This document shows positions 19,063-32,419 of a stretch of DNA of 64,000 bases, in pieces (the first letter of the stretch is position 1; the number at the start of each line of letters is the position of its first letter). The notes under the pieces are model-generated. The model was not told the DNA's origin, made no database searches, and saw nothing but the letters and a program-made list of their open reading frames with translations. Location of the stretch: positions 1 to 64,000 of the IMG/VR virus record IMGVR_UViG_3300021426_000095; one strand, 5' to 3'. Source of the stretch: a virus. A program made the position numbers and the translations under genes.

Positions 19063-19082
19063 ATGTAAGGAGTTAAATTAAC

Positions 19083-20636
19083 ATGGCTGAAAGAGAAACA
19101 GAATATTTATTTAAGCCTTATCAAATGCATATTTATATACCACATAAATGAGGAGCATACCCTCAAAAGGTTAAAATTAAAGATCGTATTAGTACTTATG
19201 AAGTTTGTCGAGTTATGGTTGATGGAAAATTAGTCCATGAACGGCATAGCGATTATTCTATAGAGGCTACTGAAAAAAATAATAAAAAAGATGGTAAACA
19301 CACTGGAAGATGTAATCTTTGTGGTAGTATACAAACAGAACCGCACAGTTGAGAAAATAAACCTCAATATATTAAAAGAGACGATATTAATCATAAATAT
19401 CTTTGTAGTAAGTTTGACACAAAAGGTCATCGTTGTGAAGGATATTATTTAGAAAAGCATAGTAAACAATATTCATTTCTTTTCGATCCTAAGGGTAAAA
19501 ATTATCGTAGTCCAGTATGACATATGGTTTTTTGTGAAATTTGTGGTGGAAGTTGACAAGAATCTCATCATTGAAAAGAAGATGGCCAAGGAGAGACTAA
19601 ATGAGAAATTTCTAATAAAGATAAACATCATAAAACCTGTATTTATTGTGGACAAGAAGAAGAAGGAAATCATAGTAATATAAAATATTTTCAGAAGTTC
19701 ATTAATAATGGTGATTTTGATACAGATAAGCATACGGCAGTATGTGGAGTTTGTCATGGACCATGACTTGAAGATCATGATTGACTGAGAAAAAGTGATA
19801 ATAGTCTTAGGTGAGAAAGTGAAAAAACTGATAGTCAATATAAAACACATCACAGGGTACAGTGTAGAAAATGTAAAGGTTTTCTATATGAAAGACATAA
19901 TTATGATCTTATTCATGTAAAATCTGGATATGACTTTGAAACTAAGTGTATATGTGGTAAAACGGATAGTATAAATAAATGAAGTATTGCTTATAAAAAT
20001 GTTCCTTGCGGGAATAAAAAAACTATGAATATTCAATTAAAATATACTGGTAAAGGTTATTTATATTTAAAAATTTTACCAGATGATCAAGGAAATTATC
20101 CTAATTATCCAATAGTTTATACAGGTGATTCAAAAAGACCTAGTCCTGAAAATAAAAATGAAAAACTTCCAATTCATGTTAAAAATGGTTGGTATAAACG
20201 TGGTAACGGTGAAGACTGAAATTTAAGTAGTTATAAAAAATATACATATAAAAAACATTTTGTAATAGAAGGTGTTAAGGAAAGTGAAAATCGAGGAATT
20301 CTTTATGAGGGAGAACGTTATAAAGGATATCGTCTTATATCTGATTATGCCGGTTATGAATCATCTGGATCAGGATCAAAAGTAACAAATATTGTGTTTT
20401 CATTAAAAGATATTAATGCTAATAAACATCGTTATTCTACTTCTAAAACAAAAGTAACTAATGAAAAAGAAGGAGGAGCAGATACTATATATTATTTTTA
20501 TAGAGGTAGATTTAATGATTTTTGGATCTATAGTAATAAGTTATATGAAGAACCATATATACTTTTTCCTTGTGTGCGTGGATGGCATAAAAGTAAAAAA
20601 AGTTTAATTAGTGGAAGTTATATAGTAACAGGGTAG
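19083..20636 (+). CDS. Cys/His-rich multi-zinc-finger protein (517 aa) with 11 in-frame TGA codons
   Basis: one continuous frame (track ORFs 20025.. and 20394.. are in frame with ATG 19083); repeated C-x2-C ... H motifs; TGA concentrated in the first 330 codons, TGG used in the last third. Confidence 0.5.
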
Positions 20637-20639
20637 TAT

Positions 20640-20800
20640 TAAATAAAATTTTATTTATTCAACTGGAATTTTATTTATTCAACCAGAATTTCATCTGCTC
20701 AACTGGAATTTTATTATTTGATTAAAATTTGATCTACTCAACTGAAATTAAATAAAATTTTATCTACTCAACTGGAATTTGAGTGCGCACATAATTACAG
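20640..20800. repeat. degenerate tandem repeat array (about 6 x 21-22 bp, AATTTTATnTAnTCAACTGG)
   Basis: ttcaactggaattttatttattcaaccagaatttcatctgctcaactggaattttatt...ctactcaactga...ctactcaactggaatttgag. Confidence 0.55.
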
Positions 20801-21031: not shown

Positions 21032-21109
21032 ATATTTGTAAGAAAGGGAAAGGAAATTTAATCCTAATCTTACATATCAGGTTTCCTTCAAGAAAAAATA
21101 AAAAACTTC

Positions 21110-21139
21110 TTGACAATCGAAAAGGAAATATGATATAAT
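21110..21139 (+). promoter_or_regulatory. promoter TTGACA-N18-TGaTATAAT + ATAAATGTAAGAAAGGGAGAG leader
   Basis: -35 21110-21115, -10 21134-21139. Confidence 0.55.
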
Positions 21140-21259
21140 ATAAATGTAAGAAAGGGAGAGATGAGAAAGGAATCCCGCTTGGGACGTCCTCCCAGGAAGT
21201 GAAAAGAAATTTCATTTCCAAAACGAGACCGCTCGCAAGAGCAGAAAAGGAGGGCCATC

Positions 21260-21628
21260 ATGGCCGAGAAGAAGATCACCATCGCTGAGAAGTTCGCTGC
21301 TACTATCGCCCTGTTTGAGGGTACTGAGCCTGAGATCGAGTGGGACCCCGCTGATGCGGTTGAGTTCCTGAAGGATCGTGCTGAGAAGGCCAAGTCCAAG
21401 CCGCGTGAGCGCAAGGTTAAGCCTGAAGTTGCTGAGTTCCGTGAGCGTGTCGCGGAGTGGCTGGCTGAAGCTGAGGCTCCTGTGACTGCCAAGGAAGTTG
21501 GTGCGGCTCTGGGTGAGTCCACTCAGAAGGCGTCGGCAGCTCTGCGGTTCCTGGTCGCTGAGGGTGAGGTTGTTGCCCATGATGGCGAGAAGGCCCGCGA
21601 CGCCAAGACTTACGAGATCGCTCGCTAG
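21260..21628 (+). CDS. small winged-helix DNA-binding protein (paralog family, 4 members)
   Basis: GC-rich ORF; C-terminal VTAKEVGAALGESTQKASAALRFLVAEGEVV is wHTH-like; N-terminus MAEKK + KPRERK shared with 25116..25436; flanked by 5 copies of AATTTTCATTTCC. Confidence 0.55.
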   Translation: MAEKKITIAEKFAATIALFEGTEPEIEWDPADAVEFLKDRAEKAKSKPRERKVKPEVAEFRERVAEWLAEAEAPVTAKEVGAALGESTQKASAALRFLVAEGEVVAHDGEKARDAKTYEIAR

Positions 21629-21795
21629 TCTATAACGGTAGGGGAGGGTGCAATGGGGCACCCTCCCAGGAAACAAATTTTAAATTTGAATTTTAATTTT
21701 CATTTCTGAACTTTAAGATTCATATTTGAAATTTTCATTTCCAACTAATCGCAGGTTACTGAAGAAAATTTTCATTTCCAAGAGAGAGGAAAATA

Positions 21796-22188
21796 ATGAA
21801 ATATACTCTTCCTAAGTCATATGCAAATGCGGGACTGCAAGTTGAGATTCCTGATTCCACTCTTAAGCAGTATCGATCTGAGCTCGGTAGTACCAAGGCC
21901 GCAGTTGATAAGTGGCTGTATGAGAATGGCTATATGGCGAAGGTTGAGTATGAAGCTTCAGTAGAAAAGATTGAGGCTAAGAAGCCTGCTAAACGTGAGT
22001 TTAAAATAGACCAAGAGAAGAGCGAAATCATTAATTTTATCTATGAACGGTTGCGGGAGTATGAAGACGAAGAAGGGTCAGCTCTTTTGTCCGAGGTAGA
22101 GATCATAAACCGCAATCGCCTTATTTCTTTCTCTCTTGGAAACAATAAATATGAGCTGACCCTAGTGCGGAAAAAGCAACCTAAATAG
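21796..22188 (+). CDS. hypothetical protein
   Basis: ATG after agagaggaaaataatg; followed by tandem terminators. Confidence 0.5.
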   Translation: MKYTLPKSYANAGLQVEIPDSTLKQYRSELGSTKAAVDKWLYENGYMAKVEYEASVEKIEAKKPAKREFKIDQEKSEIINFIYERLREYEDEEGSALLSEVEIINRNRLISFSLGNNKYELTLVRKKQPK

Positions 22189-22195
22189 ATGACAC

Positions 22196-22227
22196 GAAAG
22201 GCCATAAGGTCGGTTCCTTTCTCTTTT
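22196..22227 (+). terminator. rho-independent terminator
   Basis: gaaagg-ccataaggtcggtt-cctttc + tctttt; a second weaker hairpin + T9 at 22275-22307. Confidence 0.55.
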
Positions 22228-22396
22228 AGCCGTAAGGCTAATAATACACGGCGATCCTGACTAAGCCGTGGGTTAAGGCGTTCGAAAGGGCGCCTTTTCT
22301 TTTTTTTATGCGGTGCGGCTGTCTAAAAAATTTTTAACGAATGTAAGACTTTCCGGTAAGCGGTATTAAATTTGCGGCGAATGGTAAGAATCGCTC

Positions 22397-22426
22397 TAGA
22401 CAGATGTAGTAAAGATATGATATAAT
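22397..22426 (+). promoter_or_regulatory. promoter of the TAGACA-N18-TATAAT class firing into the AT-rich block
   Basis: tctagaca 22395-22402, -10 22421-22426. Confidence 0.45.
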
Positions 22427-22429
22427 TAA

Positions 22430-22560
22430 TCTTAGAGATTAATTAATATATAAATATATTTTATATTATATAAATATTATATATTATATTCTTATATTTT
22501 ATATAGTTAATATATTATATATTTATATAATATATATGACATGACCTTTTTTCTTTCTTG
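22430..22560. repeat. extremely AT-rich (>90% A+T) low-complexity block: candidate DNA unwinding element
   Basis: taattaatatataaatatattttatattatataaatattatatattatattcttatattttatatagttaatatattatatatttatataatatatatgac. Confidence 0.5.
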
Positions 22561-22624
22561 GTACTTCTTTCTTTTTAACTAGTTATTGCGGCCCTAGTGG
22601 TCGTTTTTTTATTATAAAATAATA

Positions 22625-22680
22625 ATTGACAGGAACTTTATTTTATGATATAATAAAAGTGATATATATTTTTTACTAGT
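22625..22680 (+). promoter_or_regulatory. promoter TTGACAG-N17-TGATATAAT + conserved AAAAGTGATATATATTTTTT, copy 1
   Basis: -35 22625-22630, -10 22648-22653; near-identical 40-nt unit repeated at 22765-22815; the hairpin ctaaacgtg-actgccg-cacgtttag at 22699-22723 lies between the copies. Confidence 0.5.
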
Positions 22681-22764
22681 GTGTGCTTCACTAAACGTGA
22701 CTGCCGCACGTTTAGTTCAGCGAGTCAAGTTAAAAGATTTTTATATTAAAATAGTGCGGCGAGC

Positions 22765-22815
22765 TTGACAGCTGCATCATTTTATGATATAATAAAAGTG
22801 ATATATTTTTTTAAA
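22765..22815 (+). promoter_or_regulatory. promoter TTGACAG-N17-TGATATAAT + AAAAGTGATATATTTTTTT, copy 2
   Basis: -35 22765-22770, -10 22788-22793; followed by A/T runs. Confidence 0.5.
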
Positions 22816-23025
22816 AAAATTTTTTTTACTAAGATAAGTTAATTTTTTAATAGCTTAAAAATAAGCTTAAAAAATTCCTAAAAAGTTGTCTTGTCCCTTG
22901 ACAAATCTTATGATAAATAAGCTTTTTGCTGGGCAGAGAGCGCAGCCCAATATAGCTAAAATAAGCTTTCCGACCAAGTAATCAGGCCTTTTTTAAAATT
23001 GCGCAAATGCGGGCAAATCAAGTAG

Positions 23026-23057
23026 TTTTCCACAAAGTTATCCACAAGTTTTCCACC
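23026..23057 (+). promoter_or_regulatory. three head-to-tail DnaA-box-like 9-mers (TTTTCCACA, TTATCCACA, TTTTCCACC): oriC-like element
   Basis: 23026-23034 TTTTCCACA; 23038-23046 TTATCCACA (perfect consensus); 23049-23057 TTTTCCACC; spacing 12 and 11 nt. Confidence 0.55.
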
Positions 23058-23106
23058 ACTGGCCGCACATCTATCCTTCTATTGGGTGAGTTTGCGGATG
23101 TGAGAA

Positions 23107-23150
23107 AAATTGCCTATAGACCTGCGAGTACGACAGAAATTGCCTATACG
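23107..23150 (+). repeat. direct repeat GAAATTGCCTATA(g/c) x2
   Basis: gaaaaattgcctatagacc ... gaaattgcctatacgat. Confidence 0.4.
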
Positions 23151-23239
23151 ATTTTTGATACAGGCGTGCGGGCGAGCACGGCCGAGCTGCCTTATAAGCG
23201 CGTATAATGGTACATTTGTACGTTTGTTGCTTGCGCGGT

Positions 23240-23300
23240 AATTGTGGAGATTTTGTAGATTAGTTTTGGGATTTTTGTGGATTAGTTGTGGAGATTTTGT
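23240..23300. repeat. inverted-orientation DnaA-box-like repeats (TGTGGAGAT, TGTGGATTA, TTGTGGAGA) interleaved with TTTTGTAGATTAG repeats
   Basis: attgtggagattttgtagattagttttgggatttttgtggattagttgtggagattttgtgtagatta. Confidence 0.45.
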
Positions 23301-23339
23301 GTAGATTAAAAATTTCCCTTGACTACGTGGTATAATTTC

Positions 23340-23362
23340 GCTAGAATGCGCCGCATTCTAGC
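23340..23362. repeat. flank-conserved palindrome family, copy 1 (arms gctagaatgcg / cgcattctagc)
   Basis: aatTTCG-arm-c-arm-CGCTGAAAgg. Confidence 0.5.
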
Positions 23363-23380
23363 GCTGAAAGGTTTGGGCAA

Positions 23381-23409
23381 AAGAAAAACCCCGCCATTAC
23401 TGGGCGGGG
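23381..23409 (-). terminator. rho-independent terminator for 23441..23806
   Basis: minus strand: ccccgcc-cagtaat-ggcgggg + tttttctttt. Confidence 0.6.
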
Positions 23410-23440
23410 TTCTCGCCATTACTGGGCGATTAGGTGAGGA

Positions 23441-23806
23441 TTACACCAGCTTGTAGCCGACATAACGCCCCTTCACCTTTTCCACTTTCTCCACTTTACC
23501 AGCGGAGATAAGCACAGCCATGACTTTGGTGCATTTCTGCGAAGTCATAATCCCGTTTACGTGTTCCATAATCCACGAGGTCAGAACAGGCTCACCCTCG
23601 GGCATGACTTTAAGCACTTCGCCAGCCAAACGAATGTTCTCTTTGGCTGCCTTAGACGGCTCATTCGACTTTTCGCGGGGCTTAGTGATGCTTGCCAGCA
23701 TCTTGGCTGCGACCTCACGGGCGTCCTCACGGGCGAGGGTTTCATAATCGCCATTCACAACAGCAGTCAGGACTTCAGCGCGGGTGATGGTGGTGTTCTT
23801 AGCCAT
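23441..23806 (-). CDS. small winged-helix DNA-binding protein (paralog family)
   Basis: C-terminal LTSWIMEHVNGIMTSQKCTKVMAVLISAGKVEKVEKVKGRYVGYKLV is nearly identical to the C-terminus of 26375..26779; RBS aaaggag. Confidence 0.55.
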   Translation of the reverse strand: MAKNTTITRAEVLTAVVNGDYETLAREDAREVAAKMLASITKPREKSNEPSKAAKENIRLAGEVLKVMPEGEPVLTSWIMEHVNGIMTSQKCTKVMAVLISAGKVEKVEKVKGRYVGYKLV

Positions 23807-24075
23807 AATCAGGCTCCTTTCGGTTGCGGGTGAGATTCCGTTTTTTCTCTCCCTCTGACAGTTAATATATTACCAAATCTTAGTGCTGGGGTCAAGTAGA
23901 ATTTTGTCTTCATAAAGTCTCCATAATTCAGGATTTAAAACAAGCGTCTGACCTGCGGTTTTGGTGATCAATTTTTCCCATGCCGGCACAAAGGCAAATT
24001 CGCTTGATTCCGCCGGAATCAAGCGCTCAAACGTTTTAAAGAACAAAAAACCCGCCTGTTTTGGCGGGTTTTTGT

Positions 24076-24774
24076 TTAAAATTGCTCAAATCGCTTTGAA
24101 ATTTCGCGCCAATGCGGATTGTGCATGCAAATTTTAACAAAATCTGAATCAAACTTGCGCTTGCGGCGAATAATTGCTGCGAAAATGTAAGATTCTATCT
24201 CACAGTCTGCCCGTGCGGTGTGCTTTTCTTCAAAATCTGTATCATTTGTGAGGTAGCGATACACAGCTTCCGCACCTGTTTGCGGATGGCCTTTTGCGGT
24301 GGTCAAATTATGCTCAGCACAGAATTTTAGATAATTACGGCTATTGCAAAGGACGGAGAGAGCCATCGCCCAAATGTCCATAAATTTTACATCACCCTTA
24401 AAGAACTGGTCATAACCGAAGTATTGCGCCGTTTTAAGCAGATGAGATACGTCAAATGAAGCATTGTACGCGCACACGGTAGCGTTAAAAGCTTTGCGGA
24501 CACTGTTAATTGTGCGGCGAATCTCAGCAAACGGCATCACGGTAAAAGCATTTGAACCCTTGTACAGCTCAAAATAGTATTGAGCAATTTTAGTCTTAGT
24601 AAAGCAGTCATGAAACATATCAAGCGTCTCAGGATGGTTCATAAATTCCTCACACACAAAGCTACCCTCGGCAACCAAGTTGCCCTTGCGGTCAATCACC
24701 GTGTAGCCATAGTCAAAAACCAGGTCGTCGCACGTTTCGGTGTCAAGAATCATGAAGAACTTTTTGCTTGCCAT
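24076..24774 (-). CDS. DEDDh-family 3'-5' exonuclease (DnaQ / oligoribonuclease-like), paralog A
   Basis: Exo I ILDTETCD, Exo II YNASFDVSHL, Exo III HTARADCE. Confidence 0.65.
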   Translation of the reverse strand: MASKKFFMILDTETCDDLVFDYGYTVIDRKGNLVAEGSFVCEEFMNHPETLDMFHDCFTKTKIAQYYFELYKGSNAFTVMPFAEIRRTINSVRKAFNATVCAYNASFDVSHLLKTAQYFGYDQFFKGDVKFMDIWAMALSVLCNSRNYLKFCAEHNLTTAKGHPQTGAEAVYRYLTNDTDFEEKHTARADCEIESYIFAAIIRRKRKFDSDFVKICMHNPHWREISKRFEQF

Positions 24775-24804
24775 TTTGTTTCCTTTCTCTCTCTGACAAT
24801 TAGT

Positions 24805-24833
24805 ATATTACAGCATGTGCCGCACACAGTCAA
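24805..24833 (-). promoter_or_regulatory. island-type promoter (minus): TTGACT-N17-TAATAT + conserved ACTAATTGTCAGAGAGAGAAAGGAAACAAA leader
   Basis: -35 at 24833-24828, -10 at 24810-24805; equivalent units precede nearly every minus-strand gene of the island. Confidence 0.55.
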
Positions 24834-24915
24834 GTATTAATTTCAGGATTTTGTCTCTTCATATTTTCTTCACAATTGTTCTTGATCTTTCTCTTGGGGT
24901 GTGCAATGGTAAATT

Positions 24916-24940
24916 CGCTCGTTTGCGCCGCAAACGAGCG
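24916..24940. repeat. flank-conserved palindrome, copy 2 (arms cgctcgtttgcg / cgcaaacgagcg)
   Basis: aaATTCG-arm-c-arm-CGCTGAAAc; perfect 12-bp arms. Confidence 0.55.
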
Positions 24941-25115
24941 CTGAAACAAAAAACTCCCGCGTCCTGTGCGCAACAGGCTGATAGCGGGAGGGAGTCTATT
25001 CTTCGGGCACCTTACCATTCCCTTTTATTTGGCGGGGCTACCGCATTAGTAAACTGTTTAATCACCTCTTTTGGATTGTGGGCGGGGAATTTCACCCCGC
25101 CCTGTTTAGATTGGT

Positions 25116-25436
25116 CTAGAGCTTGTAGACCTTGACCTTTTCGGTCGTGGGAATTTCTTCCCACCCCATCGCCTTACAGATGGCGTTTGCCTTGGGCTTG
25201 GAGACTTCCAGAATCTCAGCCACGTTCGCAGCCTTGAAAGTCTCTTCGTCCCAGACCTCAGCGAACTTTTCACCGAGGGCGATGTTCGCATCACGCTTTG
25301 CCGTGTTAGCCTTGCGGGGACGCGGCTTCGTCACCTGAGCGTACATCTTCTCCAGAACCTCTACTGCTTCAGCATTCTCAACAGCAGCAATCGCGATTTC
25401 CAGAGCTTCCTTGCGGGTCATCTTCTTCTCAGCCAT
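25116..25436 (-). CDS. small winged-helix-like protein (paralog family)
   Basis: MAEKKMT...KPRPRK... resembles 21260..21628; its terminator ctcccgc...gcgggag + T6 lies at about 24955-25000 on the minus strand. Confidence 0.5.
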   Translation of the reverse strand: MAEKKMTRKEALEIAIAAVENAEAVEVLEKMYAQVTKPRPRKANTAKRDANIALGEKFAEVWDEETFKAANVAEILEVSKPKANAICKAMGWEEIPTTEKVKVYKL

Positions 25437-25611
25437 GTCACTTTCCTTTCTTTCGTGGGGAGTTTCTTTCTTTTTTCCTCTCCCCTCCTGACACTTAGTA
25501 TATTACACTACCCATACCCAAGAGTCAAGCATTAATTTCAGGATTCTTGCGGCTTCACAATTCCTTCACATTTGCGATGATCTTTTTGACTGGTGCGTGA
25601 TAAGGTAATTT

Positions 25612-25638
25612 CGCGTCATTTCCTCCGAAAATGACGCG
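25612..25638. repeat. flank-conserved palindrome, copy 3 (arms cgcgtcattt / aaatgacgcg, 6-nt centre)
   Basis: taATTTCG-cgtcattt-cctccg-aaaatgacgcg-gcc. Confidence 0.45.
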
Positions 25639-25700
25639 GCCATCAGAGTCAATTAAACTATTTTTAATTAAAAAATAAATGGGGCTATTGCCCCATTTAT

Positions 25701-26159
25701 TTACCACCTAGCATTAAGCCATTTACGAGTTTCTTTGTCATGAATTTTTACCGTTAGCTTTTTGTGATGTGAAATCCTCCAATCTTTGAACAGTGCAGGC
25801 TCTTCAATGGTATCAAAACCATTAGCTTTAATAATGACCTTTTTTACATCAACCCTCTCAAATAGTCCGACTTCATGAATAGCTACGACTTTGTACTTTT
25901 TGCCGTTAACCCTAATAAACTTTGGAACTACAATCGTTTTTGCGTGATGCTTAATTTTAGTCAGTGCGCAGATTTTACCAGTATACAGTGCATAATGATT
26001 GCCGTCTTTGTATTTTACAATTTGTGTAGCATTCGGTGGCAAATTAATATTTGCGGCGGTTAATTGTGATGCATGAGCCGTTGCGGGGAAAATAATCAAC
26101 GTGGCAAATAACATCAGGATGAACATCGAAATGAAATTACGATTATTAGAAGTGGTCAT
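25701..26159 (-). CDS. secreted or lipoprotein-like protein with signal peptide
   Basis: ATG 26159 after agaaaggga RBS; MTTSNNRNFISMFILMLFATLIIFPATAHA|SQ looks like a signal sequence. Confidence 0.5.
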   Translation of the reverse strand: MTTSNNRNFISMFILMLFATLIIFPATAHASQLTAANINLPPNATQIVKYKDGNHYALYTGKICALTKIKHHAKTIVVPKFIRVNGKKYKVVAIHEVGLFERVDVKKVIIKANGFDTIEEPALFKDWRISHHKKLTVKIHDKETRKWLNARW

Positions 26160-26295
26160 TTTGTTCCCTTTCTCTCTGTCCTTTTGACAAATACATAATA
26201 TCATATTCGTAGCTTAAATATTTCAGGATGTGACTTCCGCACATAATCTCCACATTTAGTTTTGATTTTTTCTCTTGGGTGTTACATAGTAATTT

Positions 26296-26321
26296 CGTTG
26301 GATTGCGCCCGCAATCCAACG
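26296..26321. repeat. flank-conserved palindrome, copy 4 (arms cgttggattgcg / cgcaatccaacg)
   Basis: aATTTCG-arm-cc-arm-CGCTGAAAgg. Confidence 0.55.
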
Positions 26322-26374
26322 CTGAAAGGAAAAGCCCCCGCCTTACGGCGAGGGCTAGAAGGGAAGGGGTCAGA

Positions 26375-26779
26375 CTAGACCAGCTCATAACCGACGTAGC
26401 GACCCTTGACCTTTTCTACACGGCGAGCCTTACCCGCGGCAATGAGAACTTCCATCACCTTTGTGCACTTCTGAGAGGTCATAATCCCGTTCACATGCTC
26501 CATAATTTCGGAGGTCAGCACGGGGCGGTCAGAGGGCATCCACTGGAGGACACGTGCGGCAAGCGCCTTGTTTTCCTTTGCGGCACGGCTCTCACCCTTC
26601 GGAGCCGTGGACTTCTTACCAAGCTGGGCGAGATGTGCCTTAGCCTTGTCCACGATTTCCGTGGGAGCATCCGTCTCTTCCAGCGCACGAATGGCAAATT
26701 CCATCATCAGCGCATTCGTAACCAGCGTCTCTTCGCCGTTGAGGGTGATGAAAACACGGGGAGCGTTCTTGGTAGCCAT
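26375..26779 (-). CDS. small winged-helix DNA-binding protein (paralog family)
   Basis: ATG 26779 after agaaagaagg RBS; the C-terminus is nearly identical to that of 23441..23806. Confidence 0.55.
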   Translation of the reverse strand: MATKNAPRVFITLNGEETLVTNALMMEFAIRALEETDAPTEIVDKAKAHLAQLGKKSTAPKGESRAAKENKALAARVLQWMPSDRPVLTSEIMEHVNGIMTSQKCTKVMEVLIAAGKARRVEKVKGRYVGYELV

Positions 26780-27032
26780 AGTGTACCTTCTTTCTGCCTT
26801 GCGGCGGTTCCTTGGGGAGTTCCTTTGCTCTCCCCTCCTGACACTTAGTATATTACTCCTGTCATCTCTCAGAGTCAAGCAAAATCTTTGAGAATTTTTC
26901 TCTCCATATTCTCTTCACAATTGCGGTTGTACCGGCAAACAGGCTTCTGACCTGGGGAAACGGGATCTTTCTGATAAGTTTAAATGTGAGCAATTTGGTT
27001 AATTTTTTCCCTGGTGTGTCTAAAGGGCAATT

Positions 27033-27057
27033 CGGTCGTTTGCGCCGCAAATGACCG
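27033..27057. repeat. flank-conserved palindrome, copy 5 (arms cggtcgtttgcg / cgcaaatgaccg, one G-T)
   Basis: caATTCG-arm-c-arm-CGCTGAAAgc. Confidence 0.5.
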
Positions 27058-27343
27058 CTGAAAGCAAATCGCCCCGCAGGCCTGACACGCAACGGGGCGA
27101 CAAGTATTTTCTTTAGAGGGCGCAGCAGGACGCATCCCCGCACCCTCACACTAGCGACTAGACCGCCGCGCTAGTGTTCTATTTTTTTAAAGTATCCCAA
27201 TAGTGTTTTGCAATATTTGGAGTTCTTTCTTCTTTTGGTAAATCTTTTTCCTCGGGAAGTGGAGAAAGTGCATACCAGATAAAGAGGGCGGGGAAGCCAA
27301 GTACCATAATGTAAGTAAAGATAGTTTGCAACATTTTAATCAC

Positions 27344-27616
27344 CTACCCACAGACCAAAATTGAAATTACCAGTCCAGCCGTGAGAGCAGTCAGACAAGC
27401 GTTTTTAATCTTGTCAGCTGCGGGACGCTCCAAGTAGAAATCACGACCAAGAGCAATCAGGTTTGCGACCAACCAAATGAGCTGTGCGACCAGTGCGAGG
27501 TCAAAGCGAACAAGCACCTGACCGATGATAGTCAAACCCAGACCCAAGAGCTGAAGATTCTCAACCAGCGTTACGTGCTTGCGACTTGCGAGTTTGTTAG
27601 CTTGCTTCTCAGTCAT
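27344..27616 (-). CDS. small membrane protein (2-3 TM)
   Basis: hydrophobic ORF with its own island-type promoter. Confidence 0.45.
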   Translation of the reverse strand: MTEKQANKLASRKHVTLVENLQLLGLGLTIIGQVLVRFDLALVAQLIWLVANLIALGRDFYLERPAADKIKNACLTALTAGLVISILVCG

Positions 27617-27938
27617 CTTAGTTCCTCTCTCTTTGATGATTTCATATTACCACCATTGCGAGATTGTGTCAAGAGATTTTTCAGACTTTTTTTATTGTTT
27701 AGTCTGAGGAAAGCTAAGGCGTGCATCTCTGACTGGTACCAAGGTCAGCCATCGCCACCCGACTGCGCCAAGTCCTAGTGTGCTCGGCTTGTGGTTGATT
27801 TACGCTTACCTCTCTTGACACTTAGTATATTACACTAATAAAGCGGTGTGGTCAAGTGTTAATTTCAGGATTTCTTTATCTTCACAGAATCTTCACAATC
27901 GCGGTTGATCTTTTCTGGCCCGGGTGTAATGGTAAAAT

Positions 27939-27963
27939 CGTGCGCTTGGCCCGCAAGCGCACG
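27939..27963. repeat. flank-conserved palindrome, copy 6 (arms cgtgcgcttg / caagcgcacg, centre gcccg)
   Basis: aaAATCG-arm-gcccg-arm-CCaaacaaaaac. Confidence 0.5.
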
Positions 27964-28013
27964 CCAAACAAAAACGCCCCGAAGGGCGTTTTAGAGAGAA
28001 AGGCCAATCTTGT

Positions 28014-28271
28014 TTAGTGCATGTCTGCCCATTCCTGAGCAGTGGTTTCAGTGGTGAACGGGCCAGCTACCGCGGTGTGATAAGTTTCCCAACCAAACAT
28101 TTCGTCATACACTTTTTCAACTTCTTCTACGAAGTAGGCCGCAGGCCAAACCTTCTTGCCGACTACCCTTGTCGGGTTTGCTGCTTCAACAGCTCCCAGA
28201 TGTTCTTTCATGTACCAATCACACTTGCAACCGAAGTCCCTAGCGTTTTTTTTGATTTCGTAGCGTTTCAT
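28014..28271 (-). CDS. hypothetical small protein
   Basis: ATG 28271 after gaaagagaaaggtaagaag. Confidence 0.45.
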   Translation of the reverse strand: MKRYEIKKNARDFGCKCDWYMKEHLGAVEAANPTRVVGKKVWPAAYFVEEVEKVYDEMFGWETYHTAVAGPFTTETTAQEWADMH

Positions 28272-28357
28272 CTTCTTACCTTTCTCTTTCTTTCTTACAA
28301 GGTAAGTGTACCATGAGGGGCTGACTTTGTCAACCCCTCTACGAAATCTCCACAAAA

Positions 28358-29041
28358 CTACTTCTTGCACTTAAGACGTTCTTTCCAGACGCGCTGACGG
28401 AAAACAGGCGAGCACATAGAAGTTTCAAGCTTTTGCTTGCGCTTAAACACCGCTTGCAAAATTTGTGCTTCAATTTCACAGTCTGATAGCGCGGTATGGT
28501 CTTCCTCAAACGTGGCGTTTTGCACAAGGTAGGAGTAGACGCTTTCAGCGCTGCAAGAAATATTACCCTTTTCAGTGATAAAACCTGAATCAATACACCA
28601 ACGGACATAATTGGAACTATCACAAATAATGTTAAGTGCCATGTTCCACAAGTCCCAAACCTCAGTATCTTCAGTGAAGAACTGCTCACCCATAAGGATT
28701 TTTGCATAATCATTAAGCACTTTTACATCAAATCCCGCATTGTAAGCGACCACAACAGCGTCAAACTTTTCAATGGTTTGAGTTGTGTACCAGTGAATAG
28801 TTTCAAAATCCATAATGGGCGCAGGCTCATTATCAAGATAAAAAGCAGCTTTGTGCTTAGAAAAAGAGTCACGCTTAATCAGATAGCGCAGCGTTTCATT
28901 TTGCATAATCTCAGCGACAAGACCGTTGAAGCGCTCTACGATTTGACCCTGACGGTCAACCAAAATCCAAGCTACGTCATAAGGCACGCGAGCATCTGCA
29001 ACCGTTTCAGTGTCAAGAACCATGTAATACTTCTTAGTCAT
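28358..29041 (-). CDS. DEDDh-family 3'-5' exonuclease, paralog B
   Basis: ATG 29041 after gaaaggaaa RBS; MVLDTETVAD, YNAGFDVKVL, HTALSDCE. Confidence 0.65.
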   Translation of the reverse strand: MTKKYYMVLDTETVADARVPYDVAWILVDRQGQIVERFNGLVAEIMQNETLRYLIKRDSFSKHKAAFYLDNEPAPIMDFETIHWYTTQTIEKFDAVVVAYNAGFDVKVLNDYAKILMGEQFFTEDTEVWDLWNMALNIICDSSNYVRWCIDSGFITEKGNISCSAESVYSYLVQNATFEEDHTALSDCEIEAQILQAVFKRKQKLETSMCSPVFRQRVWKERLKCKK

Positions 29042-29198
29042 TTCAGATTTCCTTTCTCTCTCTGACAAGATACATATTACACTAATGCGGTCATGCGGTC
29101 AACCACTTCACATAATCTCCACATTTCAGGATTGATCTGTCATAGTCCTGTACTAGTAATGCACGATTATTTTTCTCCAAGGCACATAAAGGCAAATT

Positions 29199-29223
29199 CG
29201 CCAGCGTGGGCCGCACGCTGGCG
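29199..29223. repeat. flank-conserved palindrome, copy 7 (arms cgccagcgtg / cacgctggcg)
   Basis: aaATTCG-arm-ggccg-arm-CTGAATG. Confidence 0.5.
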
Positions 29224-29256
29224 CTGAATGAGAAGGAGGGCTTTTGCCCTCCTGTT

Positions 29257-29457
29257 TTAAACTTCAATCTCTGCAAAGAGTTCATCAGTATCAGCATCCC
29301 AGATATCCGCATGACCTCCACCTAGCTCTTCAAGGCCACTTCGCACATCTTCGAGCATTTCTTTTTCAGCAGATGGCGTAGTGTAGGAAATCCAGTAATC
29401 GTGCCAGTGGTCGCATCCGTCTATTCCGTCAAATTCGATATTAAAACATCTAGCCAT
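29257..29457 (-). CDS. hypothetical small acidic protein
   Basis: ORF with RBS gaaaggaaagaaaatg. Confidence 0.45.
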   Translation of the reverse strand: MARCFNIEFDGIDGCDHWHDYWISYTTPSAEKEMLEDVRSGLEELGGGHADIWDADTDELFAEIEV

Positions 29458-29543
29458 TTTCTTTCCTTTCTCTTTACCTTACAGGTAAATTGTATCACAG
29501 AAAATAATAAAAGTGAAGACCCCTCACGGAGTCTTCACATTTT

Positions 29544-29735
29544 CTACACGTAATATTCTTTCCCAGAGGGCGCGACAATCTTAGCAACTTGTACACGGTT
29601 AACATAAACAAACTTTTTAGCTTCATCCATGACTTCAACAATACAAGTTGCTTTGTATTCCCGCACACAGGAGCGACCAATAAAATCTTCATACTTGAGT
29701 TGATAAACAACTTTCTTTGCGACTTTCTTTTTCAT
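29544..29735 (-). CDS. hypothetical small basic protein
   Basis: ORF with RBS agagaaaggagtaacc. Confidence 0.45.
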   Translation of the reverse strand: MKKKVAKKVVYQLKYEDFIGRSCVREYKATCIVEVMDEAKKFVYVNRVQVAKIVAPSGKEYYV

Positions 29736-29768
29736 GGTTACTCCTTTCTCTCTTGGACTACGTCCAGT

Positions 29769-30017
29769 TTACCAGAAGTCTACCACAATGTCAAGGTCAT
29801 TTTTGTCCTTCACATCTTCTCCACAATTGCGGAGTTGCGGCAGAAAATTTTCATCCAATGGCATGGTAATTTCTCCACCGACAAAATCTTCTGAATCGAG
29901 AACAATTTCTGCAGCATCAATACGGCGTTCAATTTCTTGGATTGCATCAGCCATACTATCAGCTTCAATAATAATGCGGCGTGCAAGAGTTTCTTTGTAA
30001 TCAAAAGTAAACTTCAT
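29769..30017 (-). CDS. hypothetical small acidic protein
   Basis: ORF; contains the CTTCACATCTTCTCCACAATTG motif within its coding sequence. Confidence 0.4.
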   Translation of the reverse strand: MKFTFDYKETLARRIIIEADSMADAIQEIERRIDAAEIVLDSEDFVGGEITMPLDENFLPQLRNCGEDVKDKNDLDIVVDFW

Positions 30018-30019
30018 AA

Positions 30020-30163
30020 TTAATTCTCCTGTTCATCTTCTGGTAACTCTTCATCTTCGTACCGATGAGTAAAGATATTTTCAATCTCTCCATTTTTTGT
30101 TTTTTGTTCAAAAAGGTCTTTCGATTTTTGGCTTTCTTCCTGAAGAAAATCAAACAGCGTCAT
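30020..30163 (-). CDS. hypothetical 47-aa acidic peptide
   Basis: ATG 30163 after gagaaaggattaatc; under 60 aa so not in the ORF track. Confidence 0.3.
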   Translation of the reverse strand: MTLFDFLQEESQKSKDLFEQKTKNGEIENIFTHRYEDEELPEDEQEN

Positions 30164-30180
30164 GATTAATCCTTTCTCTC

Positions 30181-30429
30181 TTACAAGAAGAGGATACCAT
30201 AAACACTAAACCAAGTCAAGATAAAAACAGCGATTGCGGCACATCCACACAAAAAAGCCACAATTCGCGCAGGCCAACTCAAAGCGTCATACATGTAGCA
30301 ATGTTCAACCCCTGTGCATGTTTCTACATCGCCAAGATAGGTAAACAGGTAAGCATCAGCCCATGCCCAAACAAAATAACACCCAACAGAGATGGTAATT
30401 GCCGCGCAAATAATAATAATTCCGTTCAT
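30181..30429 (-). CDS. small membrane protein
   Basis: ATG 30429 after aagagaaaggagagaaa; 3 hydrophobic segments. Confidence 0.45.
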   Translation of the reverse strand: MNGIIIICAAITISVGCYFVWAWADAYLFTYLGDVETCTGVEHCYMYDALSWPARIVAFLCGCAAIAVFILTWFSVYGILFL

Positions 30430-30545
30430 TTTCTCTCCTTTCTCTTTTGGATACATAGTATCACACTTAGTTTTAGGATGCAATACTCTTCACAGAATTA
30501 TCACATTCGAGCTAATTTTTTATCTACCTGCAATAGACGTAATTT

Positions 30546-30570
30546 CGCTCGCTTGCGCCGCAAGCGAGCG
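30546..30570. repeat. flank-conserved palindrome, copy 8 (arms cgctcgcttgcg / cgcaagcgagcg)
   Basis: aATTTCG-arm-c-arm-CTGGCAAG. Confidence 0.55.
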
Positions 30571-30595
30571 CTGGCAAGTTCCAGCGCTCTTTTTA

Positions 30596-30709
30596 CTACC
30601 TCTTGGAAATTTCTTCTTGCCAAGCTGCGATTTTGTCTTCATTTAGAAAGAGGGCTATCGCTGCGATGATTGTGAAAATGACGGCGATAATCAAATCAGA
30701 AATCAGCAT
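30596..30709 (-). CDS. 37-aa single-TM peptide
   Basis: ATG 30709 after ggagaaataaa; MLISDLIIAVIFTIIAAIALFL. Confidence 0.35.
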   Translation of the reverse strand: MLISDLIIAVIFTIIAAIALFLNEDKIAAWQEEISKR

Positions 30710-30719
30710 TTTATTTCTC

Positions 30720-30932
30720 CTAAGCTTTGAATTTATTTCCCCAGCCATCAGACAGATACAGCGGCTTGATAGTGTCTTCGCAATTCTCCATAAAGGCGAC
30801 AGCTTTGTCAACTGCTTCTGCAACGCCCAGGCATTTACCGAGGTCAGCTTGACGGGCAATCCACTCGTTTTTGTAGCTGTAGTAAGTCGCATAGTGGAGC
30901 TTGTAGTTGCCAATCCATTCCCGCTTTGCCAT
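30720..30932 (-). CDS. hypothetical small protein
   Basis: ATG 30932 after agagagaaaggaactcag. Confidence 0.45.
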   Translation of the reverse strand: MAKREWIGNYKLHYATYYSYKNEWIARQADLGKCLGVAEAVDKAVAFMENCEDTIKPLYLSDGWGNKFKA

Positions 30933-31074
30933 CTGAGTTCCTTTCTCTCTTTCTGACAAATAAATTGTACCATAAATAATTTTGACCGTCAAGAAAAGTT
31001 TCAGGATTACTTCTCTTCATAATTATTCCACAAGTGCGGAAGATCTTTTTCTCTGGTGCGCTTAAATGTAAAAT

Positions 31075-31099
31075 CGTCCGCTGTGGCCGACAGCGGACG
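31075..31099. repeat. flank-conserved palindrome, copy 9 (arms cgtccgctgt / acagcggacg, centre ggccg)
   Basis: aaAATCG-arm-ggccg-arm-CGGAGCC. Confidence 0.5.
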
Positions 31100-31134
31100 C
31101 GGAGCCTTTTTGACTCCGCGCCCCAAGAGAGAGA

Positions 31135-31341
31135 CTAAAACAGTCTTTCAAGGTCTGCCCAGCTGTAACCAATCGCGGGAGAGAGAATCAAGCGGCCAAT
31201 TCCAATTTGCCATTTAAACTGTTCTTCCGCTTCTTTCTTTGCGGCCAGCAGTTCTTCTTTGGTGTCAAAGAAATCAACATGCTGTTCGTACAAATCAAAA
31301 GTATCTTCGTCTACCCAGTCCCAAACAAGCATGAACTCCAT
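31135..31341 (-). CDS. hypothetical small acidic protein
   Basis: ORF with RBS agagaaaggaaaaatc. Confidence 0.45.
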   Translation of the reverse strand: MEFMLVWDWVDEDTFDLYEQHVDFFDTKEELLAAKKEAEEQFKWQIGIGRLILSPAIGYSWADLERLF

Positions 31342-31383
31342 GATTTTTCCTTTCTCTTAACTGACAAAGTCATTGTACCACAG

Positions 31384-31833: not shown

Positions 31834-31962
31834 GTTTCTTCCTCTCTCTTGGTTGATTACATAATAGCATAATACACTATTGGTAGTTACAGGATTGTCT
31901 TACTTCACATAATCTCCACAAGTCCGGCGATCTTTTTACCCTAGTGCGTAAGGTGCTAATTT

Positions 31963-31988
31963 CGTTCGCGCAGGACCGTGCGCGAACG
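31963..31988. repeat. flank-conserved palindrome, copy 10 (arms cgttcgcgca / tgcgcgaacg)
   Basis: taATTTCG-arm-ggaccg-arm-CACGACC. Confidence 0.5.
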
Positions 31989-31998
31989 CACGACCTGT

Positions 31999-32196: not shown

Positions 32197-32346
32197 GTCA
32201 GCCCCTCTCTCTTCTCTCTTAACCTTACAAATACATAATACCATAGAGTGAGATATTTGTCAACTAATAGTTACAGGATAGAACTATCTTCACATAATCT
32301 ACATAATGCTGCCGGGTTTTTCTTGTAGTGCGTGTAAGCGATAATT

Positions 32347-32371: not shown

Positions 32372-32419
32372 GCCAGTCCCTTAAGCCAGCCACTCTGCTA
32401 GATTGCCTACAAGATTAGA

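What the first reader, a model, noticed from the sequence alone, without database searches (positions are those of the whole stretch)
22380..23340. oriC-like module inside the phage: AT-rich unwinding region + three tandem DnaA boxes + inverted DnaA-like repeats + iterons
The 22430-22560 block is more than 90% A+T low-complexity sequence, and a TAGACA-class promoter fires into it. 23026-23057 carries TTTTCCACA, TTATCCACA (perfect consensus) and TTTTCCACC head-to-tail at 11-12 nt spacing. 23240-23300 carries TGTGGAGAT / TGTGGATTA in the opposite orientation, and 23107-23150 has a direct repeat GAAATTGCCTATA x2. The region sits at the divergence point between plus-strand genes and the minus-strand island. 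A DnaA-dependent origin in a phage with its own polymerase, primase and O-like initiator is unusual. It may be a captured host oriC fragment, a DnaA-titration decoy, or a second origin.
Basis: partly seen in the sequence, partly recalled or inferred. Interest (0 to 1): 0.75.

Follow-up and report, generated by a model that had tools for sequence, protein, structure and literature searches.

The report
Conserved DnaA-box array in phage
A large gut phage carries, in a 1.25-kb gene-free control region, a conserved row of three binding sites for the host replication initiator DnaA; the region is not a copy of a bacterial origin, and what the sites do is unproven.

Summary
Most of the observed features are real. 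The block at 22437-22536 is the least stable 100 bp in the 64-kb window. The three head-to-tail DnaA boxes (23026-23057) never arose in 600 simulated sequences. They are kept in 8 related phage lineages while their spacers vary freely.

The oriC-like reading does not hold.
- The gap is where two gene clusters converge, not diverge.
- The AT block lies 490 bp away on the wrong side of the boxes, behind a terminator and two promoters.
- The 80 nt beyond the boxes are only 52.5% A+T.
- The "inverted DnaA-like repeats" are a separate conserved motif, TTGTGnAGATT, sitting just upstream of a promoter.
- Similarity to bacterial oriC loci is limited to the boxes, so I found no evidence of capture.

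The same weak-strong-weak triple occurs in 80 bacterial loci, many beside dnaA or dnaN. Head-to-tail DnaA-box arrays occur in at least 117 viral contigs and in cultured T5-like, T7-like and Lactococcus 949-like phages.

My favoured reading, at 0.3, is a host-DnaA docking site that assists a transcription-opened phage origin. Rivals are T5-like non-replicative docking, promoter control, and iterons for a phage protein.

The parts
22275..22296 (+). Intrinsic terminator of the plus-strand genes 21260-21628 and 21796-22188
   Evidence: Hairpin followed by a T-run. Folds at -15.6 kcal/mol, z -2.8. Conserved in relatives.
22300..22396 (.). Conserved non-coding block upstream of P1
   Evidence: 77-93% of columns identical in all three relatives, per 30-nt window. 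Function unknown.
22397..22426 (+). P1, a host-type promoter: TAGACA-18-TATAAT with a TG extension
   Evidence: 11 of 12 consensus positions matched. The promoter (90% of columns) and the first 30 transcribed nt (100%) are near-identical in L004 and L005. Also present in L246.
22430..22540 (.). AT-only block; the initially transcribed region of P1 and a candidate DNA unwinding element
   Evidence: The least stable 100 bp in the window. Its length varies between relatives but it stays AT-rich.
22588..22604 (+). Weak terminator-like hairpin with a U-run, ending a P1 transcript of about 170 nt
   Evidence: -7.3 kcal/mol. Relatives carry a stronger terminator at the equivalent place.
22626..22654 (+). 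P2, a 12/12 consensus promoter; a window-specific duplicate of the P3 module
   Evidence: (repeat family D2). Absent from L004, L005 and L246.
22765..22793 (+). P3, a 12/12 consensus orphan promoter with the conserved start AAAAGTGATATAT-T7-A7
   Evidence: Conserved in L004, L005 and L246; present in three copies in L247.
22800..22885 (.). Second AT-rich tract, 87% A+T, directly after P3
   Evidence: Third least stable 100-bp window of the 64 kb.
22879..23025 (.). Conserved non-coding block ending in GCAAATGCGGGCAAATCAAGTAG, immediately before the boxes
   Evidence: 73-93% of columns identical in all three relatives, per 30-nt window. Found in 7 further metagenome contigs. No Rfam family, and no excess RNA structure (z -0.18).
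23026..23057 (+). Three head-to-tail DnaA boxes: TTTTCCACA, TTATCCACA and TTTTCCACC, spaced 12 and 11 nt
   Evidence: 0 of 600 simulations reached this match. Nucleotide diversity is 0.082 in the boxes and 0.545 in the spacers across 8 lineages, Fisher p=0.003.
23107..23148 (+). Direct repeat AAATTGCCTATA, two copies 30 nt apart; the GCCTATAG core recurs in all lineages
23242..23310 (+). Six tandem 11-nt units TTGTGGAKATT; a member of the TTGTGnAGATTTTGTG motif found just upstream of the -35 of P4-type promoters in every lineage
   Evidence: Conserved position in L003, L246, L247 and L248. Not conserved as DnaA boxes.
23319..23347 (+). P4 promoter: TTGACT-17-TAGAAT
   Evidence: L005 and L246 have TTGACA-17-TAAAAT at the same place.
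23339..23363 (.). Perfect 12-bp-arm palindrome CGCTAGAATGCG-C-CGCATTCTAGCG, overlapping the -10 of P4
   Evidence: Read from the sequence. Identical in L004; replaced by a different GC-rich palindrome in L005 and L246.
23385..23428 (-). Intrinsic terminator of the minus-strand gene cluster (CCCCGCC-7-GGCGGGG with a U-run) plus a second copy of the CGCCATTACTGGGCG hairpin
   Evidence: repeat family D13. Folds at -25 kcal/mol, z -3.4.
23441..23806 (-). 121-aa winged-helix protein; one of four paralogs in the 44% GC island and a candidate binder of the conserved repeats
   Evidence: AlphaFold pLDDT 88; Foldseek matches to Fur, ArsR, MarR and AspA winged helices at E 0.02-0.1.

Best explanation
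The gap 22189-23440 is a conserved, gene-free control region between two converging early-type gene clusters. The phage is large and AT-rich, recodes TGA, is distantly related to SPbeta, and probably infects gut Firmicutes.

The gap is built from four kinds of element:
- orphan host-type promoters, all pointing right;
- extremely AT-rich tracts directly after those promoters;
- terminators;
- phased repeat arrays.

The element at 23026-23057 is a docking site for a short oligomer, about three protomers, of the host initiator DnaA. It has the same weak-strong-weak, 11-12-bp-phased design as the oligomerisation cores of bacterial oriCs. It is neither a copy of an oriC nor an oriC-type unwinding module.

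Favoured mechanism (inferred, not shown):
1. Transcription from P1 and P3 opens the AT tracts, as at the T7 primary origin and T4 oriF.
2. DnaA bound 140-490 bp away recruits the host helicase-loading machinery, as DnaA does at P1 oriR or RK2 oriV.
3. Winged-helix proteins on the neighbouring repeats shape the complex.

My estimate is about 0.7 that the array binds DnaA and about 0.3 that the gap is an origin.
For: Shown:
- The boxes are non-random.
- They are under purifying selection while the spacers drift, across 8 lineages.
- The same triple sits at bona fide oriC neighbourhoods in bacteria.
- Promoters, Shine-Dalgarno sequences and a polymerase 38.7% identical to SPbeta YorL point to a Firmicutes host, whose DnaA recognises TTATCCACA (the DnaA specificity is established knowledge).
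- The gap holds the first and third least stable DNA segments of 64 kb, each directly after a near-consensus promoter. That promoter-then-AT-tract design is kept in all lineages examined.
- No ORF, Rfam family or excess RNA structure explains the conserved blocks.
- A 1.2-1.5 kb gene-free gap at the same convergent position is kept in phages down to 62% protein identity.

Inferred: DnaA binding, unwinding and helicase recruitment.
Against: - The boxes point away from both AT tracts, and no AT-rich DNA follows them.
- One lineage (L247) keeps the gap but lacks the boxes.
- The L003/L248 lineage has four arrays of TTATCAACA-type boxes, often as palindromic pairs. Each array lies just upstream of a promoter module, which looks regulatory rather than replicative.
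- No initiator gene is adjacent.
- The gap is a convergence point about 30 kb from the replication genes.
- In T5, similar boxes are not at the origin.
- Across 91 viral arrays there is no AT peak on the 3' side, and their neighbours are rarely replication initiators.
Confidence: 0.3

Rival explanations
1. T5-like, non-replicative DnaA docking. The array lies in early-expressed, possibly first-entering or terminal-repeat DNA. It tethers or organises the phage DNA through host DnaA, which is largely membrane-associated. This is what was proposed for the injection-stop region of T5.
For: - All T5-like phages carry DnaA and DnaA* boxes (TTATCCACA, TTATCAACA, TTATTAACA), 3 bp apart, in the repeat-rich untranslated region next to the pre-early genes.
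- The same box variants occur in L003 and L248.
- The 44% GC island uses host-type promoters and no TGA recoding, and it encodes a deoxyribonucleotidase-like protein, as the T5 pre-early region does with dmp (dmp is from my own knowledge).
- In cultured phages, 11 of 57 records with arrays of four or more boxes have the array within 300 bp of a record end. About ten T5-like records have it in the terminal repeats.
- Terminase genes are the commonest neighbours of the viral arrays.
Against: - The T5 model is itself an untested proposal from a single preprint.
- The physical ends of this phage are unknown.
- Related contigs run through the island without ending there.
- There are no large inverted repeats of the T5 IRC/IRD type.
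Confidence: 0.2
2. Transcription control. DnaA bound at the array activates or represses the neighbouring orphan promoters (P5 in most lineages, P4-type promoters). This would couple early phage transcription to the host's replication state.
For: - In 6 of the 9 lineages examined a strong promoter starts 40-45 nt after box 3.
- In L003 and L248 every box array is followed by TTGTG repeats and a P4-type promoter. In addition a box overlaps the predicted -10 of a winged-helix gene.
- Viral arrays have slightly AT-rich 5' flanks and sit somewhat more often between divergent genes.
- DnaA is an established transcription factor (PMC8203912 listed; otherwise my own knowledge).
Against: - The window, L005 and L264 lineages have lost P5 but keep the best boxes.
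- The promoters have no genes to control.
- The nearest downstream promoter here is 262 nt away.
Confidence: 0.17
3. The boxes are iterons or operators for a phage-encoded protein, for example one of the winged-helix paralogs. Their resemblance to DnaA boxes is incidental or only ancestral.
For: - There are four winged-helix paralogs in the island, one of them adjacent.
- L003 and L248 use TTATCAACA, which violates the stringent DnaA consensus at position 6. They often use it as perfect palindromic pairs, typical of dimeric repressors.
- One lineage has no boxes.
Against: - The predicted recognition helix (T-S/P-QKCTKVM) is unchanged between the CCACA-box and CAACA-box lineages. It therefore tracks the invariant TTGTG repeats rather than the boxes.
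- The exact T-A-T triple recurs in 80 bacterial loci and in unrelated phages.
- TTATCAACA co-occurs with consensus boxes in T5-like phages and near bacterial arrays, a 3-fold enrichment on small numbers.
Confidence: 0.15
4. DnaA titration decoy. Amplified phage DNA soaks up host DnaA and blocks host re-initiation, in the manner of datA or the B. subtilis DnaA-box clusters.
For: L003 and L248 carry 15-23 boxes within one mismatch of the consensus in 12-13 kb of sequence, against about 3 expected by chance in L003. Phage copy number would multiply the number of sites.
Against: The window lineage keeps only three boxes, one of them perfect. The box number is stable across 8 lineages rather than expanding.
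Confidence: 0.07
5. A recently captured fragment of the host oriC.
For: The triple has an oriC-type design.
Against: - blastn similarity to the 80 bacterial loci covers 27-41 nt, essentially the box array only.
- There is no dnaA or dnaN nearby.
- The flanks are phage-specific and conserved among relatives.
Confidence: 0.02

Closest known systems
DnaA / DnaA* box clusters in the untranslated repeat region (proposed injection-stop signal) of the terminal repeat of T5-like phages (Davison, bioRxiv 10.1101/866236)
   Same: Both lie in a large gene-free, repeat- and palindrome-rich region beside host-promoter-driven early genes of a phage over 100 kb that carries tRNA genes. The boxes are 2-3 bp apart. 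Relatives use the same variant boxes (TTATCAACA, TTATTAACA). Neither sits next to replication genes.
   Different: T5 has about eight boxes as pairs embedded in two large inverted repeats; here there is one head-to-tail triple. Location in a terminal repeat is unknown here. The phages are unrelated: this one has an SPbeta YorL-like polymerase. The function in T5 is itself only proposed.
Bacterial oriC basal unwinding system: tandem DnaA boxes, DnaA-trios and an AT-rich DUE (PMC8287927)
   Same: Tandem same-orientation boxes no more than 3 bp apart. The identical T-A-T triple is found next to dnaA and dnaN in many bacteria.
   Different: There is no AT-rich element and no clear GAT-type trio run on the 3' side. 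The AT block is 490 bp away on the 5' side. There is no synteny or sequence homology beyond the boxes.
Iteron-type plasmid and phage-plasmid origins (P1 oriR, F oriS, RK2 oriV, pSC101) (own knowledge)
   Same: Tandem DnaA boxes at the edge of a region that also holds AT-rich DNA, direct repeats and a palindrome overlapping a promoter. In those origins DnaA acts as a helicase recruiter at a distance.
   Different: No recognisable Rep initiator gene is present. The repeats are 11-12 nt rather than 17-22 nt. The elements are spread over about 900 bp and interleaved with terminators and promoters.
Transcription-activated phage origins (T7 primary origin with phi1.1A/B plus an AT-rich region; T4 oriF/oriG) (own knowledge)
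   Same: Strong promoters are followed directly by very AT-rich DNA, in tandem, with no gene served.
   Different: Those origins use no DnaA. The promoters here are host-type. There are no initiation data.
Non-coding gap of Lactococcus 949-group phages (for example AM1, KY554768.1, 14.5-16.1 kb)
   Same: A 1.6-kb gene-free gap between converging clusters of small genes in a Firmicutes phage of about 125 kb. It contains TTATCCACA-tag-TTATCCACA...TTATCCACA.
   Different: There is no sequence homology. The AM1 gap is dominated by GT-rich and CA-rich arms, and no consensus promoters were detected. To my knowledge it is also uncharacterised.
datA of E. coli and the DnaA-box clusters of B. subtilis, which act as titration or inactivation sites (own knowledge; the reviews are listed)
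   Same: A cluster of DnaA boxes outside an origin.
   Different: Those loci have more high-affinity boxes and, for datA, an IHF site. They are chromosomal.

Membership tests
Bacterial oriC / basal unwinding system | One or two (tandem) DnaA boxes, same orientation, no more than 3 bp apart | tested here: met
   Three boxes with spacers of 3 and 2 bp, and 0, 0 and 1 mismatches to TTWTNCACA.
Bacterial oriC / basal unwinding system | Three or more DnaA-trios (NAN, consensus 3'-GAT-5') starting within 16 bp of a box on its 3' side | tested here: inconclusive
   Read by eye. The bottom strand reads TAG-GAA-GAT-AAC starting 15 nt after box 3. Only the generic NAN pattern is kept in L004 and L005, and such a pattern is common by chance. 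Definition.
Bacterial oriC / basal unwinding system | AT-rich unwinding element directly beyond the boxes and trios | tested here: not met
   The 80 nt downstream are 52.5% A+T, below the island mean of 56.8%. The AT block is 490 bp upstream.
Bacterial oriC / basal unwinding system | Chromosomal context (dnaA, dnaN, parB, yidC) or homology to a bacterial oriC | tested here: not met
   No such genes are present. blastn similarity to the 80 bacterial loci covers 27-41 nt, essentially the box array only.
Iteron-type plasmid / phage-plasmid origin | DnaA boxes together with an AT-rich region in one non-coding unit | tested here: met
   Both are present in the 1.25-kb gap, 140 and 490 bp apart.
Iteron-type plasmid / phage-plasmid origin | Three or more direct iterons of about 17-22 bp | tested here: inconclusive
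   There are six 11-nt units (three of 22 nt) and two 12-nt repeats. Binding has not been tested.
Iteron-type plasmid / phage-plasmid origin | Adjacent gene for the cognate Rep initiator | tested here: not met
   The neighbours are a 121-aa winged-helix protein and a 130-aa protein with no Rep, Phage_rep_O or DnaA hits in Pfam or PHROGs. Their fold matches generic wHTH regulators.
T5-type DnaA-box region (injection-stop signal) | Large untranslated, repeat-rich region beside early genes driven by host promoters | tested here: met
T5-type DnaA-box region (injection-stop signal) | Consensus and variant DnaA boxes grouped 3 bp apart | tested here: met
   A triple with spacers of 3 and 2 bp. Relatives use TTATCAACA and TTATTAAC variants. 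Definition.
T5-type DnaA-box region (injection-stop signal) | Boxes embedded in paired large inverted repeats (IRC/IRD) | tested here: not met
   No long inverted repeat pairs outside the AT block.
T5-type DnaA-box region (injection-stop signal) | Position inside the terminal repeat near the first-step-transfer boundary; two-step injection | not testable with these tools
   Needs read coverage, terminus mapping or infection experiments.
Transcription-activated phage origin (T7 / T4 type) | Conserved promoter immediately upstream of a DNA unwinding element, serving no gene | tested here: met
   P1 with the AT block, and P3 with its AT tract. Conserved in relatives. No ORF follows.
Transcription-activated phage origin (T7 / T4 type) | Replication initiates there | not testable with these tools
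   Needs marker-frequency sequencing or 2D gels.
datA-like titration locus | Cluster of several high-affinity boxes (four or five, or more) | tested here: not met
   There are three boxes, one of them perfect. The number is stable in 8 lineages. L003 and L248 do have many.

The most novel reading that the evidence does not exclude
Head-to-tail DnaA-box arrays with 11-12 bp phasing are a widespread and almost undescribed class of phage cis-element. Through them, unrelated phages dock the host initiator. I found them in at least 117 distinct IMG/VR loci and in cultured T7-like, T5-like, Lactococcus 949-like, Arthrobacter and Vibrio phages and Microviridae, often at genome ends.

In this SPbeta-related, TGA-recoded gut phage the array is combined with orphan promoters and AT tracts. 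Together they would form a hybrid origin that is both transcription-opened and DnaA-assisted.
Probability: 0.3. Interest if true: 0.7.

Novelty: new member of a known kind. Interest (0 to 1): 0.5.

Why it matters
If the array binds DnaA, this phage family has kept a minimal mimic of the oriC oligomerisation core. It has done so over a divergence at which the spacers between the boxes are already randomised. That would make it a compact, testable example of a phage exploiting the host initiator.

The wider survey suggests the same device recurs in many unrelated phages. Some are cultivable (Lactococcus 949 group, T7-like and T5-like phages), where deletion and DnaA-binding experiments are easy. 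Such experiments would decide between origin, genome-end or entry, and regulatory roles. They would also test the unproven T5 injection-stop proposal.

For annotation there are two lessons. An AT block plus DnaA boxes does not make an oriC-like origin. And gene-free promoter-rich gaps in recoded gut phages are conserved functional units.

Tried and rejected
- **Near-identity search of INPHARED.** Using the gap and the structural region as queries returned nothing useful.
- **Rfam.** No family at the gathering threshold or at E up to 5.
- **RNA structure.** The P3-to-boxes transcript has no excess structure (z -0.18). The P1 transcript is only mildly structured (z -1.9).
- **Coding explanations.** The 66-aa ORF 23007-23207 spans the boxes. 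It has no ribosome-binding site, and relatives diverge by indels right after the boxes. Reading TGA as sense gives no ORF of 120 aa or more lying within the gap.
- **Inverted 'DnaA-like' repeats as DnaA boxes.** Rejected, because they are not conserved as such.
- **Iteron-like array at 20637-20790 as an alternative origin.** It is absent from L004, so it is not conserved.
- **Captured oriC.** Rejected.
- **Neighbour analysis of 163 genes flanking viral arrays.** The result is heterogeneous, with no enrichment for replication initiators.
- **Enrichment of TTATCAACA near bacterial arrays.** About 3-fold on only 6 occurrences, which is too weak to use.
- **PDB sequence search with the winged-helix family profile.** No relative found.
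- **Primase or O-like initiator.** None found among the 40 ORFs scanned.
- **Contig ends as a clue to genome termini.** Uninformative.
Full report
**What the window is.** The 64-kb window comes from a large AT-rich phage of about 30% GC.
- It carries a tRNA block (1-6200), NAD-salvage genes, portal and structural genes (about 35-51 kb), NrdD, a 1273-aa PolIII-alpha-type polymerase and RecJ on the minus strand (52-64 kb).
- The polymerase is 38.7% identical over 99% of its length to YorL of Bacillus phage SPbeta.
- Near-consensus TTGACA-17/18-TGnTATAAT promoters precede genes all along the window. With the strong Shine-Dalgarno sequences, this points to a Firmicutes host.
- Late genes contain many in-frame TGA codons, and a tRNA with anticodon UCA lies at 49729-49825.
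- A 12-kb island of 44% GC (about 21100-33050) uses no TGA recoding. It encodes four paralogous small winged-helix proteins, two DEDDh-type exonuclease paralogs and a deoxyribonucleotidase-like protein.

**Where the finding sits.** The finding lies inside the island, in the 1.25-kb gene-free gap 22189-23440. Plus-strand genes end at 22188 with a terminator at 22275-22296. The minus-strand cluster ends at 23441 with a strong terminator at about 23389-23409. No ORF of 120 aa or more lies within the gap, even with TGA read as sense.

- 22437-22536 is 98% A+T and is the least stable 100 bp of the window (dG -82.7 against -123.8, sd 9.7). The third least stable segment (22776) is also in the gap.
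- Each AT tract follows a near-consensus promoter: P1 at 22397-22426 and P3 at 22765-22793. P2 at 22626-22654 is a window-specific duplicate of the P3 module.
- The three boxes TTTTCCACA, TTATCCACA and TTTTCCACC start at 23026, 23038 and 23049.
- DnaA boxes are not enriched over the window as a whole: 8 against 10.8 expected. But a phased triple this close to the consensus never arose in 600 simulated 64-kb sequences.
- The repeat AAATTGCCTATA occurs twice.

**Comparative evidence for the boxes.**
- Three IMG/VR contigs, three ENA contigs and seven JGI/ENA metagenome contigs carry homologous gaps.
- The most conserved parts are P1 with its upstream block and first 30 transcribed nt, P3, the block 22879-23068, and the last four 11-nt units with the P4 -35 region.
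- Across eight distinct lineages, nucleotide diversity is 0.082 in the 27 box positions and 0.545 in the 8 spacer positions. Variable positions number 7 of 27 against 7 of 8, Fisher p=0.003. Every lineage keeps at least two boxes within one mismatch of TTWTNCACA. This is the signature of selection on phased 9-mers, that is, protein-binding sites.
- One lineage (L247) keeps the gap but lacks the boxes.
- The L003/L248 lineage (about 60% protein identity) instead has four dense arrays of TTATCAACA, TTTTCAACA and TTATTAAC boxes plus a few TTTTCCACA, in both orientations. Each array lies just upstream of TTGTG repeats and a promoter module.

**The 'inverted DnaA-like repeats' are something else.** 23242-23310 is six 11-nt units, TTGTGGAKATT. 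Two of them are a window-specific duplication. The one unit close to a DnaA box reads AGTGAATTA in relatives. The motif TTGTGnAGATTTTGTG is conserved in every lineage and always lies 10-15 nt upstream of the -35 of a P4-type promoter. The adjacent 121-aa protein is a confident winged helix (pLDDT 88). Its predicted recognition helix is unchanged between lineages with different boxes. If it binds anything here, the invariant TTGTG repeats are the better candidate. This is inference.

**Is it oriC-like?** The triple itself is.
- The pattern TTTTCCACA-N2-3-TTATCCACA-N2-3-TTTTCCAC occurs in 80 bacterial loci, against about 0.001 expected by chance (my own rough estimate from the collection size).
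- The genes flanking those loci include DnaA (16), DnaN (14), ParB (4) and YidC (2).

The module as a whole is not.
- In the basal unwinding system the boxes are followed on their 3' side, within about 16 bp, by DnaA-trios and then AT-rich DNA (PMC8287927).
- Here the next 80 nt are 52.5% A+T, and only a generic NAN pattern is present.
- The AT block is 490 bp away on the 5' side, behind a terminator and two promoters.
- Similarity to the bacterial loci spans 27-41 nt, essentially the box array only, so there is no sign of a captured oriC.

**A wider class.**
This gave 117 distinct loci, 102 of them outside long ORFs. The arrays hold 3-13 boxes, and 101 of 117 have no reverse box.
- Their neighbours are heterogeneous: terminase subunits, methyltransferases, RusA, RecE, ParB-like proteins and few replication initiators.
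- On average no AT-rich peak follows the arrays.
- Among cultured phages, 57 records have arrays of four or more boxes:
  - 17 Lactococcus 949-group phages;
  - T7-like, Arthrobacter and Vibrio phages, with 11 records holding the array within 300 bp of a record end;
  - T5-like phages, with the array in the terminal repeats;
  - Microviridae.
- In Lactococcus phage AM1 the array sits in a 1.6-kb gene-free gap between converging clusters of small genes, the same architecture as here.
- The only literature found is Davison's preprint. It reports that all T5-like phages carry about eight DnaA/DnaA* boxes (including TTATCAACA and TTATTAACA) in the untranslated region of the terminal repeat, away from the T5 origins. 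It proposes that they stop DNA injection by binding membrane DnaA.

**Mechanism.**
- Shown: a conserved, phased, oriC-type DnaA-box array inside a conserved gene-free hub of orphan promoters, AT tracts, terminators and repeats.
- Inferred: it docks about three DnaA protomers. I put this at about 0.7.
- What that does is open. I rank highest, at 0.3, a non-oriC origin. In this reading, transcription from P1 and P3 opens the AT tracts (T7/T4 logic) and DnaA acts at a distance as a recruiter (P1 oriR / RK2 logic).
- The rivals are T5-like non-replicative docking in early or terminal DNA (0.2), promoter control (0.17), iterons for a phage protein (0.15), titration (0.07) and captured oriC (0.02).
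- The points against an origin are the wrong box orientation, loss of the boxes in one lineage, promoter-linked arrays in another, the absence of an adjacent initiator, and the T5 precedent.

**Verdict.** The element is a new member of a recurring but barely described kind, DnaA-box arrays in phage non-coding regions. It is neither a phage-borne oriC nor a categorically new system. Interest is moderate, at 0.5. The array is real, conserved and experimentally tractable, and the breadth of the class was unexpected. The function is unproven, and DnaA boxes in phage or plasmid DNA have precedents.

Noticed in passing
window 19077-20636, 33293-34417, 35421-37400, 37840-39447, 43912-44802; tRNA at 49729-49825: Stop-codon recoding. 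Reading TGA as sense raises coverage by long ORFs from 32.3 to 46.7 kb. Late and structural genes have 2-13 in-frame TGA codons, while the island and the replication genes have essentially none. A suppressor-type tRNA with anticodon UCA is present; ARAGORN calls it SeC.
   Followed up: partly
window about 21100-33050: A 12-kb island of 44% GC in a 30% GC phage. It uses the standard code and host-type promoters. It holds four paralogous small winged-helix genes (21260, 23441, 25116, 26375), two DEDDh exonuclease paralogs (24076-24774, 28358-29068) and a deoxyribonucleotidase-like gene (31384-31833). It could be an early or host-takeover region, or a terminal repeat.
   Followed up: partly
window 20637-20790: An iteron-like array of six to seven units of about 20 nt ending in TCAACTGGAATTT, at the left edge of the island. 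It is absent from the relative L004, so it is not conserved.
   Followed up: partly
window 32348-32370 and 32773-32795: Two 11-bp-stem hairpins, GCTCGCTGTGG-CC-CACAGCGAGC and GCTCGTGTTGG-CC-CAACACGAGC. They differ by compensatory changes, and each is preceded by GATAATTC. This may be a structured RNA or a palindromic operator family. A related CTAGTGTG motif follows P2 at 22676.
   Followed up: no
window 22626-22673 and 22765-22812; L247 8440-8130: Orphan promoter modules, TTGACAG...TTTATGATATAAT-AAAAGTGAYATAT-T7-A7. They are copied two or three times per gap, and the number differs between lineages. They behave like a small mobile or duplicating cassette.
   Followed up: partly
L003 6885-6960, 7105-7190, 8120-8310; L248 8170-8850 and 9770-9945: Dense arrays of 15-23 TTATCAACA / TTTTCAACA / TTATTAAC boxes, many as perfect palindromic pairs. 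Each array lies in front of a promoter module. In addition, a TTATCCACG box overlaps the predicted -10 of a winged-helix gene (L003 8030, L248 9669).
   Followed up: partly
IMG/VR loci L126-L245; cultured phage hits H57-H113: Head-to-tail DnaA-box arrays are common in phage genomes. In cultured records they are often within 300 bp of a genome end (T7-like, Arthrobacter, Vibrio) or in T5-like terminal repeats. They also occur in the intergenic regions of gut Microviridae.
   Followed up: partly
L348 (Lactococcus phage AM1, KY554768.1) 2340-3560: The AM1 gene-free gap has an arm of about 400 nt that is extremely GT-rich and a mirror arm that is CA-rich, around an AT-rich centre. The DnaA-box array lies next to these arms, and the gap as a whole lies between converging gene clusters.
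   Followed up: no
window 56206-56315: The second most AT-rich segment of the window, 92% A+T over 100 bp. It lies between nrdD and a guanylate-kinase gene inside the replication module, so it is another place where an origin could lie.
   Followed up: no
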